Below, piece after piece: positions 822-28,796 of a DNA stretch of 35,502 bases (the stretch's first letter is position 1; each line of letters begins with the position of its first letter). The DNA comes from Luteolibacter sp. GTDB lineage: Bacteria > Verrucomicrobiota > Verrucomicrobiia > Verrucomicrobiales > Akkermansiaceae. Both the position numbers and the translations under genes were made by a program. Below the pieces are notes generated by a model. That model did no database searches and was not told the DNA's origin. It saw only the letters and a program-made list of their open reading frames with translations. Location: contig JBIHZT010000001.1 of NCBI GenBank assembly GCA_044240265.1, forward strand, positions 1 to 35,502, written 5' to 3'.

Positions 822-1211
822 ATGCGTCACTTCACCACCATCCAGACCCAGATCCGCGATCTGGACGCCCTCAACGACGCCTGCGCCGAAATGGACCTCA
901 AGCTCGTCGCAAACGCCAACTGCCGGAGCTACGCCGGCGTCAACCGCCAAGCACCCCATGTTATCAAGCTCAAAGGCCCGTATGACATCGCCGTCGAACC
1001 CTCACCGGAGAACGACGCCACCTACGGCCTGACCACCGACTGGTGGGACGGCCATGTCGTCAAGGAAGTCGGAATCGGCTACGGCCGCTTGCTGCAATCC
1101 TATGGCATTCACAAAACCATCCGCGAAGCCCGTTCCCGCGGACTCCGCACCCACCGCAGGCAGGAAGCCGATGGCTCAATCCTGCTGACCATGGAAGGAG
1201 GCTCGCTGTGA
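822..1211 (+). CDS. DUF1257 / Ycf35-family protein (129 aa)
   Basis: Begins MRHFTTIQTQIRDLDAL (family pattern MSHF-x-x-I-x-T-x-I-x-D). Contains YDI, DWW, LLQSY and C-terminal DGSILL. Lies next to DUF2997 and a Ycf46-like AAA gene. ATG 822 is preferred over the ORF-track start at 552. Confidence 0.85.
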   Translation: MRHFTTIQTQIRDLDALNDACAEMDLKLVANANCRSYAGVNRQAPHVIKLKGPYDIAVEPSPENDATYGLTTDWWDGHVVKEVGIGYGRLLQSYGIHKTIREARSRGLRTHRRQEADGSILLTMEGGSL

Positions 1212-1414
1212 TCCGCCGCATCCATGTCCGCGTTTCTCCATTTGGGGAAATCACCGTCGAGGCCGAAGAATTCCAAGGCAAAGGCTGCGAAGCCGCGACC
1301 AAGGCCATCGTGGACGCTCTCGGAAAAACCCGGGAACGCTCCCGCAAACCCGACTTCTTGCGGCGATCCCAGCGCCACCAGAACCCACAACAACTCGGCG
1401 AAGCAGGCGCATAA
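1208..1414 (+). CDS. DUF2997-family protein (68 aa)
   Basis: Starts at a GTGA start/stop overlap with the DUF1257 gene. VSPFGEITVEAEEFQGKGCEAATKAI matches the G-x-V-x-x-E-x-x-G-x-x-G-x-x-C pattern loosely (one Gly is Glu). Confidence 0.8.
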   Translation: MIRRIHVRVSPFGEITVEAEEFQGKGCEAATKAIVDALGKTRERSRKPDFLRRSQRHQNPQQLGEAGA

Positions 1415-1419
1415 AAACC

Positions 1420-1662
1420 ATGAGCTAAACCCTTCGCTTCAACCCCGGCGGTCACATCGACTGCCTTTACACCGAAGCGATCGATCTTCGTGAGCTCGGG
1501 AGACTGCAAGTCTTCCGGGCCACGGACATCCGCTTCTGCGAACGCACCCAACTCTGGAAGGTCCGCTGCGCTTCATCCGGCAAGCTCCTCCACTGCGATT
1601 TCTCGCGCGAGGCCTGCCTCGCCTGGGAACGCGCCAACATGCAGGTAAAAGCTGAAAACTGA
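1420..1662 (+). pseudogene. Small Ycf46-module protein with a premature stop at codon 3
   Basis: ATG AGC TAA, then an open frame TLRFNPGGHIDCLYTEAIDLRELGRLQVFRATDIRF...SREACLAWERAN to TGA 1662. I recall the LY-x-E-x-IDL-x-x-LG-x-L-x-x-x-RA and R-x-x-x-L-x-WE pattern from small proteins in PVC DUF1257/DUF2997/AAA operons. The ORF track misses it. Confidence 0.65.
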
Positions 1663-1777
1663 AATGCTGAAAGCTGAGATTAGCCGGAGGAAAGCGACTC
1701 GTCGCCACACCTCCGGCTTTTTCGAGTTTCAGACCTTCGACCTTCAGACTCTTCCCCAGTAACAAATAACAAATAAC
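1647..1777. repeat. Short (about 7-bp) tandem repeats around a GC hairpin
   Basis: CTGAAA-type repeats (1647-1679), stem AGCCGGAGG/CCTCCGGCT (1682-1690/1710-1718) plus T-run, TTCAG-type repeats (1727-1753), and TAACAAA x2.5 (1760-1777). Confidence 0.6.
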
Positions 1778-1795: not shown

Positions 1796-3313
1796 ATGCA
1801 AAACCAACTCACCACCTATCTGCTCGCCGGCTACCCCGGCCTCGCCGTCATCAGTTCCGAGGAAGCGCGCGCCGAAGCGAAAATCGCCACCGCCTGCACT
1901 TCCCTCAAACGCAAGCTCCATGCCTGGTCCTCCAGCGAGGGTCTGGTCGATACCGAGGATGGCCGGGTCACCGCCTGCCCCGATCCGCTCGAAGCCCTCC
2001 AGCTCCTCAACGGCATGTTCGCCGCCGACAGCCCGCGCCACGTGGTGTTGTTCCGCGACCTGCAACTCCACATGGACCAGAGCGACCCGATGCTGGTGCG
2101 CCGCATCAAGGACATCCTGCGTCTCGCCAAGGCCAACGGTCATTCCATCATCCTGCTGGGCTGCCGGCTCAAGCTCCCCCCGGAACTCGAACACGAAATC
2201 ACCCACGTCGATTTCAGCCTGCCCGATCCAGCGCGGCTCGGTGTCGTGTTCGATGGCATTCTCAAATCCGCCAAGCTAAAGGCCCCGCATGATGCGGTCC
2301 GGGAAGCCGCGTTGCAAAGCGCTCTCGTACTCACCACCGAAGCGGAAAACGCGTTCGCCTTGTCCGTCGTTGAAACCAAGGGCATCGACCACAAGGTCGT
2401 AGCCCGCGAAAAGGCCCGAACCTTGAAGAAGAACGGGCTTGTTGAAGTGGTGGAGGCGACCACCTCCCTCAACGACATCGGCGGACTCGGCCTGTTGAAG
2501 GAATGGCTGCAAGGCCGCTGTGGAGCCTTCGGCACATCCGCGAAAGCCTATGGTCTGCCAGCTCCCAAGGGCTTGCTCATCGTCGGCATTCCCGGCACCG
2601 GCAAATCGCTCACCGCGAAAGCCACCGCCGGTGCCTTCGGACTGCCCTTGCTGCGTCTCGACATGGGACGCGTCTTCGGCGGCATTGTCGGTCAGTCGGA
2701 AGCCAACCTGCGGTCCGTCATCCAAACCGCAGCGGCCATCGCGCCTTGTGTATTGTGGATCGACGAAATCGAAAAGGGTTTCTCCGGCTCACAAAGCAGC
2801 GGCTCCACCGACGGCGGCACGTCCTCCCGGGTGTTCGGAAGTTTCCTCTCCTGGATGCAGGAGAAGGACAAGCCCGTGTTCGTCGTGGCGACGGCGAATG
2901 ATGTTTCCAAGCTCCCACCGGAGTTTCTCCGCAAAGGACGCTTCGACGAATTGTTCTTCGTCGATCTACCCGACGCCTCGGAGCGCGCGCAAATCTGGGA
3001 CATCGTCATCAAACGCCACGGCCGCAAGCCCGCCGATTTTGATACCGTCGCCCTGGCCCGCGCCTGCGAGCATTTCACCGGGGCGGAGATCGAGGCCGTG
3101 TTCATCGACGCCCTGCACGAAGCGTATGCCGATAGCCGCGAACCCCGCGCCAAGGACATCCTGGACGCGATGACCCGCACCGTTCCGCTCGCCCAACTGA
3201 TGGACGGTCAGATTGCCGCGCTGAAGCATTGGACGAAAGGCCGTGCCCCCGAAGCCGCCAGCCGGGTCCAGCCCCCGCCGCGCAATGGCCGGCGGATCGC
3301 GGAGGCGAATTGA
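1796..3313 (+). CDS. ycf46: Ycf46-family AAA+ ATPase (505 aa)
   Basis: Degenerate N-terminal AAA domain (EEARA...). Active domain has Walker A GIPGTGKS, Walker B VLWIDEIEK, VVATAN, LPPEFLRKGRFDELFFVDLP and FTGAEIE. Lies with DUF1257 and DUF2997. Confidence 0.9.
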   Translation: MQNQLTTYLLAGYPGLAVISSEEARAEAKIATACTSLKRKLHAWSSSEGLVDTEDGRVTACPDPLEALQLLNGMFAADSPRHVVLFRDLQLHMDQSDPMLVRRIKDILRLAKANGHSIILLGCRLKLPPELEHEITHVDFSLPDPARLGVVFDGILKSAKLKAPHDAVREAALQSALVLTTEAENAFALSVVETKGIDHKVVAREKARTLKKNGLVEVVEATTSLNDIGGLGLLKEWLQGRCGAFGTSAKAYGLPAPKGLLIVGIPGTGKSLTAKATAGAFGLPLLRLDMGRVFGGIVGQSEANLRSVIQTAAAIAPCVLWIDEIEKGFSGSQSSGSTDGGTSSRVFGSFLSWMQEKDKPVFVVATANDVSKLPPEFLRKGRFDELFFVDLPDASERAQIWDIVIKRHGRKPADFDTVALARACEHFTGAEIEAVFIDALHEAYADSREPRAKDILDAMTRTVPLAQLMDGQIAALKHWTKGRAPEAASRVQPPPRNGRRIAEAN

Positions 3314-3371
3314 ACACCACCAGTCAAAAAGCATCGTCCTCCACTACGGGCCTGATGCCCGAGTCTGATTG

Positions 3372-3442
3372 GAACCGCCCTGTACGGAGCCGTAAGCAGG
3401 GCGGTGTGGGACCCGGGACCTAACTACTCCCCGGGCCCCGAT
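3372..3442 (+). mobile_element. Group IIC intron 3' remnant (domains V-VI)
   Basis: GAACCGCCCTGTACGGAGCCGTAAGCAGGGCGGT fits the short IIC domain V with CGC triad. It is followed by a domain VI-like stem (CCCGGG...CCCGGG) and ends ...CCCGAT. No RT ORF or 5' domains are seen. Confidence 0.8.
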
Positions 3443-3458
3443 TCGACTCCTCCGATCA

Positions 3459-3821
3459 TCACTTTCGAAATGGATTGCCAATCGCTCGCCAAATGACGAG
3501 CAACGTTATTGTGTGAAATACTGCGATTCCGAGATTACTGATCACCACAGGGTTGTGAAACGTTCCCACAGATACAGGTGTCGTAATCTTGTAGAGTATC
3601 TGCACCGACAAGAGTACTGCAACGGAGCTTGGATCGCGAAATGCGAGCAACAGAAAAGAGGCGATTAGGATGCTTAGATAAACTGAAAGAAGAATGCCAC
3701 GTGCAGGTGTCGCGACGCCATAGCTTGCCTGTGACCAGCTCGCATCCGTGATGAGACCAGCGCAGACGGGAATGAGCACGAAAATGTTTAAAAGCAACGA
3801 GAATACAATCAGCTTTTTCAT
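3459..3821 (-). CDS. Small integral membrane protein (about 4 TM, 120 aa), gene cassette 3
   Basis: Highly hydrophobic ORF starting MKKLIVFSLLL. An R'' stub (GTCGA) interrupted by the intron lies just after the stop. Confidence 0.75.
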   Translation of the reverse strand: MKKLIVFSLLLNIFVLIPVCAGLITDASWSQASYGVATPARGILLSVYLSILIASFLLLAFRDPSSVAVLLSVQILYKITTPVSVGTFHNPVVISNLGIAVFHTITLLVIWRAIGNPFRK

Positions 3822-3889: not shown

Positions 3890-3968
3890 GCCGAACGTCA
3901 AGGTGTGGAACGCGACTTTCTGGGCACGATTGAGGCTCATGGGCGTTGCCAACACCGCCTTGTTCGAA
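3890..3968 (-). other. attC recombination site (79 bp)
   Basis: Minus strand reads TTCGAAC-aaggc-GGTGTTGGCAACGC...GCGTTCCACACC-ttgac-GTTCGGC. It has R''/R' boxes, 5-nt spacers and imperfect L arms with extrahelical bases, and begins right after the stop at 3970. Confidence 0.8.
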
Positions 3969-3969
3969 T

Positions 3970-4485
3970 TTATTTTTTGTCTTTTATTTTCAACGGGGCA
4001 CTGGATACAGTGCCTGTCCAGTATCCGAATCTTCCATCATAGAAGTCTTTCGGTGAATAGGTGACGGTGATTTCTTCCAATGGAACTGCCATCTTAAACT
4101 CTATCTTCATAGCGGCGACTTCGCCGGAACGAATATCAACCAGCCTTAAATCCTCACGTGATGGAACCACAACGGCACCCCCATCAGCAAGTGTCGTTTT
4201 TTCCATATTGAGCTTCACCTCTTGCTTGGGATCTCCAGGAGATGTTTGTTGAGACAAGCTAGCGGTCACAACCGTGAGAGGCTTCTCTGAAATATTCTTT
4301 AGATAGACCACAAAAGAGTATCCGAAGCCATCCACTTCGCCCCAAGTCTTAGCGGCATTATCATATTTCTGAATCTTGACCGGACCTTTACCCATGAGAA
4401 CTGGTGTAGAAACTTGAATTTCTTGTGCCCACGCAGAGAAGAAGGGCAGCAAGGTTGTGGCTAAAAGGAGAATTGTGTGTTTCAT
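3970..4485 (-). CDS. Secreted hypothetical protein (171 aa), gene cassette 2
   Basis: Signal peptide MKHTILLLATTLLPFFSAWA. The ATG lies 5 nt after R' GTTCGAA. The longer ORF-track start (4590) runs through the attC. Confidence 0.75.
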   Translation of the reverse strand: MKHTILLLATTLLPFFSAWAQEIQVSTPVLMGKGPVKIQKYDNAAKTWGEVDGFGYSFVVYLKNISEKPLTVVTASLSQQTSPGDPKQEVKLNMEKTTLADGGAVVVPSREDLRLVDIRSGEVAAMKIEFKMAVPLEEITVTYSPKDFYDGRFGYWTGTVSSAPLKIKDKK

Positions 4486-4490
4486 ATTTT

Positions 4491-4587
4491 TTCGAACGTT
4501 TGATGTGCGCCCACCGGCGCGATTGAATGGAGAATGAATTGAAATTGAAAAGCTTATGGCCGGTTGGTGCGTCATGACTTGTTGTGC
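4491..4587 (-). other. attC recombination site (97 bp)
   Basis: Minus strand reads GCACAAC-aagtc-ATGACGCACCAACCGGC...GCCGGTGGGCGCACAT-caaac-GTTCGAA. Confidence 0.8.
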
Positions 4588-4613: not shown

Positions 4614-4943
4614 TCAAATGGCCGTCAATGCCTCTCCATAAAATCGCCCACAGATAAAGCTTACCAGAGTTGCCACAGCCGTTGCTGCACAGAAGAACCC
4701 AAAACCGCGAGACTTGCCAGCCTTCTCGTAAGGAAAAAATGCAAGCATCGTTGTAAGGACAAGCACGACGACTCCAATAATCAAAAGGGAGGTAGGATAA
4801 AGAATGATTGCCATGACTTGAATTGTTCCAAGATACGAGGCTAATCCGGCGATGAATCCCAGAATACTTGCAAGAAACAGAGTCGATACCCTGAGCATGG
4901 GGGATTTAGTGAGTTCTTCCATCGTTCTCTGCGGTCGATCCAT
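4614..4943 (-). CDS. Small membrane protein (about 3 TM, 109 aa), gene cassette 1
   Basis: Hydrophobic ORF. The ATG lies 5 nt after the GTTGTGC core site. Confidence 0.65.
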   Translation of the reverse strand: MDRPQRTMEELTKSPMLRVSTLFLASILGFIAGLASYLGTIQVMAIILYPTSLLIIGVVVLVLTTMLAFFPYEKAGKSRGFGFFCAATAVATLVSFICGRFYGEALTAI

Positions 4944-4948
4944 TTTCT

Positions 4949-4968
4949 GCACAACATTAGTATTGAAC
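4949..4968 (-). other. Putative attI site
   Basis: Minus strand reads GTTCAATA-CTAAT-GTTGTGC: a degenerate L box, 5-nt spacer and R core. No attC-type long inverted repeat is seen upstream, and it lies at the head of the array. Confidence 0.55.
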
Positions 4969-5664
4969 GACCTGTCGGGTTTTGGGGGTGATACACGACC
5001 GGTCGTTGAACAGGGTAAAAGGCGACCCAGAAAGGCAGACTTCGTCCAGCGACTCCTGATCGGTCGTCTTCATGCATGAGGCCTATCACAGTCACCTTTC
5101 TCCCGACAAGTCCGGAGATTTCTGATTCTCCCGTAACCGCCCACCCACGCGTTGCGAATCTTCCCCCAACAAACTCCCGGCCGCCCGACACGCCCTATGA
5201 GGTGAACGGTGACAAGGAACAGGCTGGGCTTCTTTTTTACACCAGCCGACTCGATGCCAGTGGACGGCTTGAGTCGAACCATCAGAAAATCATCGGTCAT
5301 CTCGGGATCACCATCTCGCCACCCGCGCCCAATCGCTGCGACCTCGACGCTTATGCGAGAAGCTCGGCAATCATCACGTCCTTCAAAAAAGGGATTACAC
5401 CGGCTGCCTCAATGCCTTGGATACGATGCTGGCCGCCGACGGGATCTCTTCTCCCGAGACGGAGTGTGTTCTTTTCCGTTGGGATTTTGGATAGATTTCA
5501 TTGCTGGCGGGCGGGCGGACCTTGACAATTTGCCGCAACATTGCCCGTCCGCGTTCCTCCCGGGAAGTGCCTTCCAGCCGGTCCGTTTGTGCAATCGCCG
5601 GGAATGCGAGGACCAACATCGCGATCCACCCCGCAGTTTTTATTAGAACCTGAGGTAAAAGCGG

Positions 5665-28721: not shown

Positions 28722-28796
<75 letters not shown>

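What the first reader, a model, noticed from the sequence alone, without database searches (positions are those of the whole stretch)
3372..3460. Group IIC intron end fused at the attC bottom-strand GT|T target: footprint of a IIC-attC intron
Seen: the intron ends ...CCCGAT at 3442 and the next bases are TCGAC, which is the bottom strand of an R'' box (GT|TCGAC) just after the cassette 3 stop. The intron is antisense to the cassettes. The two intact attCs show the matching unoccupied target CTTGT|T (3959-3964, 4578-4583). Known: IIC-attC introns insert at TTGT|T on attC bottom strands. Inference: such an intron inserted here, and a later deletion removed its RT gene and joined it to the end of the Ycf46 gene. 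I know this intron class mainly from Proteobacteria.
Basis: partly seen in the sequence, partly recalled or inferred. Interest (0 to 1): 0.7.

Follow-up and report, generated by a model that had tools for sequence, protein, structure and literature searches.

The report
Intron stub anchoring swappable gene cassettes
The stretch is the last 110 bases of a decayed self-splicing intron at the far end of a small gene-cassette array; four related genomes share the same stub but each has a different gene fused to it, likely because later copies of the intron recombine with the stub and swap the last cassette.

Summary
Confirmed and extended. Window 3333-3442 is the 3' 110 nt (12 RT codons, domains V and VI) of a Verrucomicrobia class C intron. 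Relatives with both ends sit at TTGT|T in 35 of 39 cases, inside attC sites. A homologue of cassette 3 has an intact CTTGT|TCGAC site. The stub lies 19 nt behind the Ycf46 stop, not fused to the gene, and three catalytic positions are mutated. The scan has reported such relics on other DNA; a truncated IIC-attC intron is also in print.

The new point: the same Ycf46-spacer-stub junction occurs in 4 of 209 genomes of the genus. All share the attI-side flank, yet no cassette is shared, and the switch falls exactly at the intron's 3' end. Sister stubs share private mutations, so at least two terminal cassettes were replaced after the intron died. Two stubs carry the two commonest domain VI haplotypes of full-length introns.

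Best reading (inferred): recombination between the stub and later intron copies deletes or swaps distal cassettes without an intact attC. Rivals: integrase at a non-canonical site; repeated truncation at one spot.

The parts
822..1211 (+). DUF1257 gene of the host mobile module
   Evidence: Pfam PF06868 E 3.7e-7
1208..1414 (+). DUF2997 gene of the host mobile module
   Evidence: Pfam PF11211 E 2.8e-12
1796..3313 (+).
   Evidence: Pfam AAA E 1.4e-29; in 45 of 209 genus genomes; slot contents vary
3314..3332 (.). 19-nt spacer, left side of the truncation junction
   Evidence: same length and 13-18 of 19 identical in the four same-junction loci
3333..3368 (+). Intron stub: last 11 RT codons plus stop (IVLHYGPDARV*)
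   Evidence: matches the C-terminus of the intact RT of L073
3372..3407 (+). Intron stub: domain V, class C type; CGC triad 3376-3378 kept, bulge AC changed to AA (3395), G.U wobble changed to G-C (3402)
   Evidence: both changes absent from 21 full-length copies
3408..3442 (+). Intron stub: domain VI and 3' end; branch-point A changed to C at 3436, two C.C mismatches in the stem
3443..3447 (+). Remainder of the R'' box (bottom strand) of cassette 3's attC; 3' exon
   Evidence: homologous cassette with intact CTTGT|TCGAC in run X2
3459..3821 (-). Cassette 3 ORF (terminal cassette, 120 aa, no family)
   Evidence: no Pfam or NCBIfam hit
3890..3968 (+). Intact attC (bottom strand given)
   Evidence: detector score 42.4
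3970..4485 (-). Cassette 2 ORF (171 aa, no family)
4491..4587 (+). Intact attC (bottom strand given)
   Evidence: detector score 38.8
4614..4943 (-). Cassette 1 ORF (hydrophobic, no family above cut-off)
4949..5035 (-). attI-like primary site (GTT core at 4953-4955); the label attI is inferred
   Evidence: in 36 of 151 genus genomes; IntI-like sequence lies on its outer side in 5 of 30 loci; no IntI in the window
5036..5195 (.). Outer flank and conserved module motif shared by all arrays in this slot
   Evidence: 80-99% identical among the four same-junction loci

Best explanation
The stretch is a 110-nt, mutated 3' stub of a class C attC-targeting group II intron that ends an integrase-less cassette array in four related genomes, each with a different last cassette, which was likely swapped by recombination between the stub and later intron copies. 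Steps: (1) An intron of this family reverse-spliced into the bottom strand of the last attC at TTGT|T (target shown for relatives, inferred here). (2) One old deletion removed the rest of that attC and ~1.74 kb of intron, leaving the stub 19 nt behind the ATPase stop (inferred). (3) The stub cannot splice or move (inferred from the missing domains I-IV and three catalytic changes), and its cassette has lost the site that IntI normally uses. (4) New cassettes would still enter at attI by an integrase in trans (inferred). (5) When a new intron copy lands in a more proximal attC, or a copy exists in another element, its 3' end is a direct repeat of the stub. A crossover, or a template switch of the nascent cDNA, within the last ~50 nt removes the old terminal cassette and joins another precisely to the intron end (inferred).
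For: Identity and target. Same junction in 4 of 209 genus genomes, 0 control matches, one genome being a single contig (G214). The arrays at the four loci, and at two more in this slot, share no cassette by blastn or tblastx, while spacer and attI flank are shared. Homology to G277 stops one base past the intron end. Sister stubs share changes absent from 21 full-length copies: window and G277 at -48 and -105; G214 and G234 at -51 and -104. None is shared in the last 47 nt. Domain VI of G277 (last 31 nt) and of G214 match the two commonest full-length haplotypes (7 and 6 copies), which differ at four sites including a compensatory pair. In each sister pair one stub has a clean 3' end (last 31 nt in G277, last 50 nt in G214). 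The predicted intermediate, a stub with a second same-strand intron piece further into the array, is seen at 6 of 72 stubs (3 of 42 with 2 kb or more in view). Stubs mark array ends: 0 of 53 have an attC within 1.65 kb upstream, against 7 of 21 two-ended copies. Intact integron integrases lie elsewhere in G214 and G277.
Against: Only one such group of loci was found among 72 stubs, four members in all. No full-length donor intron was found in G214 (complete), G277 or G234, nor in the window's genome (76% complete), so donors must have been lost or met in earlier hosts. The homology available is short (47-50 nt). The window's own stub and that of G234 carry several private changes in the last 30 nt, so they show no recent refresh. 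The clean 3' ends are weak evidence alone (my rough reckoning: about 1 in 6 by chance for each). The module is mosaic (window vs G277: attI flank 99%, ATPase fourfold sites 68%), so relative ages are uncertain. No single contig of the runs laid spans the whole window locus.
Confidence: 0.62

Rival explanations
1. An integron integrase recombines at the stub/R'' junction (top strand AA|T in place of AA|C), treating it as a non-canonical site, and so replaces the terminal cassette without any second intron copy.
For: The switch point is also compatible with a cut one base into the 3' exon, since that T is near universal (137 of 146 ends). IntI accepts unusual sites (PMC12901181, passages). Integrases are present in trans in G214 and G277. 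A GTCRAAC-like box lies in the spacer of three of the four loci.
Against: It does not explain why two stubs with one left junction carry two different full-length-intron haplotypes in domain VI. The site has no attC-like L-box pairing that I could see (by eye). Top-strand recombination is about 1000-fold weaker even for true attCs (PMC8946536, passage).
Confidence: 0.13
2. There was no swap: different full-length introns, each on its own cassette, were truncated independently at the same base through a short microhomology with the spacer.
For: The slot was truncated independently at least once more (G186, 84-nt stub, other junction). It would explain the two domain VI haplotypes. A few bases of microhomology sit at the related C65 junction (read by eye).
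Against: Other stubs break at scattered points from 62 to 1796 nt. Sister stubs share private, function-breaking mutations, which independent truncations would not. At most it could account for the split between the two pairs.
Confidence: 0.08
3. The stub is kept by selection as a functional element (terminator, insulator or RNA) between the ATPase operon and the convergent cassettes, and cassette turnover is incidental.
For: It persists across hosts whose ATPase fourfold sites are 54-68% identical, at 83-94% identity itself.
Against: The non-coding attI flank is about as conserved (80-99%). Changes hit stems and catalytic sites without compensation. Most copies of the module have no stub.
Confidence: 0.07
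4. The differing terminal cassettes are assembly artefacts at a repeated sequence.
For: Intron 3' ends are a deep repeat in metagenomes (depth peak at 3322-3440); three of the four loci are from fragmented assemblies.
Against: All four loci return to the same attI-side flank. G214 is a single-contig genome. Stubs carry private mutations that tell them from other copies. A contig of run X1 crosses the ATPase-stub junction at 100% identity (X1 may be the source sample).
Confidence: 0.05
5. Stubs are born truncated by abortive reverse transcription, or by template switching onto mRNA 3' ends or terminators.
For: Lengths are skewed short (median 156 nt). One stub is 99.7% identical to a neighbouring full copy.
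Against: Short 5'-only stubs also occur (8 of 61 5' ends; one in this genome), as do internal deletions (10 of 29 two-ended copies). The host attC half is kept upstream in only 1 of 58 stubs. Upstream genes show no strand bias (22 sense, 25 antisense, 4 none). Short-read assembly favours short stubs. It does not explain the cassette swap.
Confidence: 0.05

Closest known systems
Group IIC-attC introns (S.ma.I2 of Serratia marcescens pSCH909 and relatives in class 1 integrons; PMC3001079)
   Same: Class C RT, short CGC-type domain V, insertion at TTGT|T in attC bottom strands, antisense to cassettes, often in the last cassette. The best plasmid hits of the family RT are these introns (44-50% identity).
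   Different: Verrucomicrobia hosts; a separate well-supported RT clade whose grouping with S.ma.I2 is neither shown nor rejected (p-AU 0.29); here only a 110-nt stub with no RT and no 5' region.
5'-truncated IIC-attC intron UHB.F1 and truncated introns in CALINs (PMC7923331, passages)
   Same: Truncated intron end at a cassette; that paper names a Verrucomicrobia RT as UHB.F1's best hit (80% identity).
   Different: UHB.F1 keeps its RT domains; no shared-junction series and no cassette swap are described in the passages read.
Leon and Roy model of cassette formation by recombination between two IIC-attC introns (paper not held; known from the summary in PMC7923331)
   Same: Recombination between intron copies joins a different gene to one flank at the intron boundary.
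   Different: Here every 3' exon is already a cassette end with an R''-like box, the left flank has no attC, and the intron is non-functional; no new cassette is made.
Exon shuffling by recombination between group II intron copies in Thermosynechococcus elongatus (TeI4f/TeI4g; PMC2882425, passage)
   Same: Flanks exchanged across homologous intron copies.
   Different: One inferred event between full-length IIB introns; no integron, no persistent stub.
CALIN elements (PMC4889954, passages)
   Same: Two or more attCs with no neighbouring intI.
   Different: This array keeps an attI-like site and rides in a variable slot of a multi-copy AAA-ATPase / WGR-ligase module.

Membership tests
Group IIC intron | Short domain V with CGC triad, 2-nt bulge and G.U wobble | tested here: met
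   Family: CGC in 18 of 19, bulge AC or AT in 19 of 19 full copies. Window keeps the fold and triad but has bulge AA and G-C in place of G.U.
Group IIC intron | Domain VI with bulged A seven bases from an AT 3' end | tested here: met
   A in 19 of 19 full copies; the window has C at 3436, a private change.
Group IIC intron | Class C RT/maturase without endonuclease | tested here: met
   Intact relative L073: TIGR04416 388 bits over cut-off 300, RVT_1 plus GIIM only; closest solved structure GsI-IIC RT. The window keeps only 11 codons.
Group IIC intron | Match to Rfam RF00029 Intron_gpII | tested here: not met
   No hit in the window nor in intact copies L073 and L101, which do hit RF02001 at ~100 bits; the model does not fit this lineage.
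Group IIC intron | Self-splicing and retrohoming activity | not testable with these tools
   The stub lacks domains I-IV; activity of full copies needs a bench assay.
Group IIC-attC intron | Insertion at TTGT|T in the attC bottom strand | tested here: met
   35 of 39 two-ended copies; 38 of 58 listed 5' exons kept as clean attC halves; empty homologous site; ACAA in the EBS1 loop.
Group IIC-attC intron | Antisense to the cassettes | tested here: met
   Window and the five other arrays in this slot.
Group IIC-attC intron | RT monophyletic with S.ma.I2 and kin | tested here: inconclusive
   Both groups lie outside the clade of 11 other class C RTs (100/96); held together p-AU 0.29 (7 of 27 rows left out, six near-duplicates and one outgroup); root fork open.
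Group IIC-attC intron | Outward promoter in the 5' region | not tested
   That region is missing from the stub.
Terminator-targeting IIC intron | 5' exon is an intrinsic terminator hairpin | tested here: not met
   5' exons are attC halves with an R'-like AAC box; no sense-strand bias of genes upstream of stubs.
CALIN / integrase-less integron array | [quoted passage not shown] | tested here: met
   Two attCs; no IntI match in the window by tblastn; the genome's IntI genes are elsewhere and broken.
CALIN / integrase-less integron array | Recombination at the attI-like site by IntI | not testable with these tools
   Inferred from position next to intI in 5 of 30 relatives and from cassette turnover.

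The most novel reading that the evidence does not exclude
A dead intron stub acts as a permanent backstop that turns a small integrase-less array into a conveyor: cassettes enter at attI, and each new attC-homing intron insertion recombines with the stub (possibly by the cDNA annealing to it during retrohoming) to purge or replace the distal cassettes. This would be a second, integrase-independent route of cassette turnover and a natural record of the intron-to-intron recombination step proposed for cassette formation.
Probability: 0.35. Interest if true: 0.65.

Novelty: new variant of a known kind. Interest (0 to 1): 0.45.

Why it matters
Intron-disrupted attC sites are usually read as locking a cassette in place. 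Here one junction has carried four unrelated terminal cassettes, so the lock is leaky, and the exchange falls at the intron boundary. If intron homology does the work, attC-homing introns shape array size and content without integrase, and the recombination step of the intron model of cassette origin has a natural example that can be rebuilt in a laboratory strain. The relic itself is ordinary; the family is widespread in Verrucomicrobia (31 of 201 family genomes).

Tried and rejected
Rfam search of the window: no group II hit; uninformative, as intact copies also miss RF00029.
A defined ~90-nt element with a fixed 5' end: rejected; ends scatter from 62 to 1796 nt.
Template switching to mRNA ends or terminator insertion: no strand bias upstream.
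Insertion of the unit with a target duplication: seen only at C65; 3 of 35 junctions scored 28 or more against 3 of 136 controls, and the other two are attC-like or cassette-end matches.
The outer end of the attI-like site as a mobile end: rejected, the flank continues in relatives.
A designed trans-splicing pair with the 5' stub on C296: stub lengths vary too widely; not tested further.
Two early attC detectors were discarded (one search missed the known sites; one search gave 175 mostly false hits). The domain V counts came from a faulty pattern and were replaced.
More same-junction loci: the metagenome scan gave one locus, a duplicate of one already held; viral scans gave none; the family search added only a chance match.
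Expression: no RNA holder listed. Contig X1-7 mixes two alleles of cassette 3 and may be an assembly path; not interpreted.

Full report
1. Observation. The coordinates hold. 3372-3442 folds as two hairpins (z -3.98), ends in CCCGAT and is followed by TCGAC, 11 nt before the stop of an antisense ORF. Rfam gave no group II hit, but RF00029 also misses two intact copies of the family, which do match RF02001 at about 100 bits. Alignment to full-length relatives moves the start to 3333: the stub is 110 nt, 91% identical to L073, and keeps the RT tail. It starts 19 nt after the ATPase stop.

2. The family. The 3' end matched 31 of 201 genomes of the family. In the final set of 168 distinct 3' ends, 39 have both ends, 72 are stubs with at least 150 nt of other DNA upstream, and 57 run into a contig or locus edge and were set aside. 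Of the 39, 35 read TTGT|T. Of 58 5' exons listed, 38 were kept as clean attC halves after filters on score and length and nine rows dropped by eye. The EBS1 loop reads ACAA. The RT is class C. Its best plasmid hits are integron introns. In a 27-row tree the Verrucomicrobia RTs (99/98) and the S.ma.I2 group (99/99) both fall outside the other class C RTs, with an open fork; holding them together is not rejected (p-AU 0.29) and not shown.

3. State of the stub. It has bulge AA, G-C in place of the G.U wobble, and C at the branch point. It is the only one of 141 scored ends with three such changes (8 ends did not match the anchor). That it cannot splice is inferred from this and from the absence of domains I-IV.

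4. Setting. The array reads, on the minus strand: attI-like site (4949-5035), three cassettes, two intact attCs, stub. No IntI is in the window; the genome's integrase genes on C76 and C65 are broken. The array lies in a variable slot behind an AAA ATPase gene of a multi-copy module with DUF1257, DUF2997 and, in relatives, a WGR-domain ligase. Of 51 such loci looked at, 6 carry an attI array; 8 had under 700 nt in view. In G349 the array ends in an intact attC. In G186 the same slot sequence is joined to an 84-nt stub, with the attC gone. This supports deletion as the origin of stubs. Across the set, 0 of 53 stubs have an attC within 1.65 kb upstream against 7 of 21 two-ended copies; downstream the figures are 15 of 47 and 11 of 20, so the detector finds about half. 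5'-only stubs (8 of 61) and internal deletions (10 of 29) show decay from all sides.

5. The unexpected result. The exact junction (stop, 19-nt spacer, 110-nt stub) is in 4 of 209 genus genomes, with no control match: the window, G277, G214 (one contig) and G234. All share the outer attI flank (80-99%; the attI core is partly replaced in G234), but no cassette, and each has a different 3' exon joined at the intron's last base. Against 21 full-length copies, window and G277 share private changes at -105 and -48, and G214 and G234 at -104 and -51; no private change is shared in the last 47 nt. So at least two terminal cassettes were replaced after the stub had died, with the exchange in the last ~50 nt or at the junction. 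The four domain VI sites that separate G277 from G214 are the four that are polymorphic among full-length introns, and each stub carries one of the two commonest haplotypes, including a compensatory pair. Drift in a dead sequence is unlikely to give that (my reasoning, not a computed test). The window is mixed: type 2 up to the loop, the type 1 letter at -11, which may be a crossover or a single mutation.

6. Mechanism. Most likely, later intron insertions supply a direct repeat of the stub's 3' end, and recombination or a cDNA template switch deletes what lies between. Six of 72 stubs have a second same-strand intron piece further into the array. Against this: only one series of four; no full-length donor in these genomes today; short homology; a mosaic module; and two of the four stubs show no recent refresh. 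Integrase acting at the junction is the main rival. Class C introns using replication-fork primers is stated in PMC4424553 (passage); the switch onto the stub is my inference.

7. Literature seen. PMC3001079: first of six parts plus passages. Passages only: PMC7923331, PMC8876359, PMC4889954, PMC12901181, PMC4424553, PMC2882425, PMC8946536. Leon and Roy 2009 was not held; Quiroga and Centron 2009 was seen only as a citation and may list Verrucomicrobia members. No supplements were read; those of PMC7923331 may bear on UHB.F1. Searches found no report of terminal-cassette exchange across an intron stub; the library lacks most subscription papers, so this is weak. The scan's earlier notes describe similar relics on other DNA, none on this sequence.

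8. Verdict. The relic is a known kind in a barely reported host group. The shared-junction series with swapped cassettes is a variant I did not find described, rests on four loci, and is directly testable. Interest 0.45.

Noticed in passing
G000:C65:3731-5733 (L222): A second 3' stub (~90 nt), one cassette, an attI-like site and a broken intI lie between two copies of a ~35-nt repeat that includes the end of a 4-alpha-glucanotransferase gene; in G235 that gene is followed directly by a sucC-like gene (name by recall), and several other relatives have other DNA at this spot.
   Followed up: partly
G000:C296:433-882 (L223): A 450-nt 5' stub of the same intron behind an intact attC half, joined to the end of a convergent metallo-beta-lactamase-fold gene.
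   Followed up: partly
G000:C456:2184-2602 (L002): An apparent ORF-less group II intron of another class, about 420 nt: RF00029 47 bits at 2528-2602, a GTGCG start read by eye, no RT on the contig.
   Followed up: no
window 4949-5035; G000:C491:2502-2573; G000:C160:330-420: A genus-wide attI-like element with an internal inverted repeat; IntI-like sequence was found on its outer side, co-oriented with the cassettes, in only 5 of 30 loci.
   Followed up: partly
L095 (position 246, minus strand): An intron 5' end joined directly to the 3' end of another copy (CCGAT|GTGTG), a tandem or nested insertion.
   Followed up: no
L034, L036, L040, L059: A short repeated element interrupts the RT gene of several copies at more than one site.
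   Followed up: no
window 1644-1754: Short intergenic repeat upstream of the ATPase, also on C141 and C36 and at several places in G235.
   Followed up: no
window 28725-28796 (-): tRNA gene with a CAU anticodon (Rfam 63 bits), next to a short uvrA-like fragment (name by recall).
   Followed up: no
G000:C39:3877-5172 (L001): The genome's only RT: RVT_1 without a maturase domain, not a group II intron protein.
   Followed up: no
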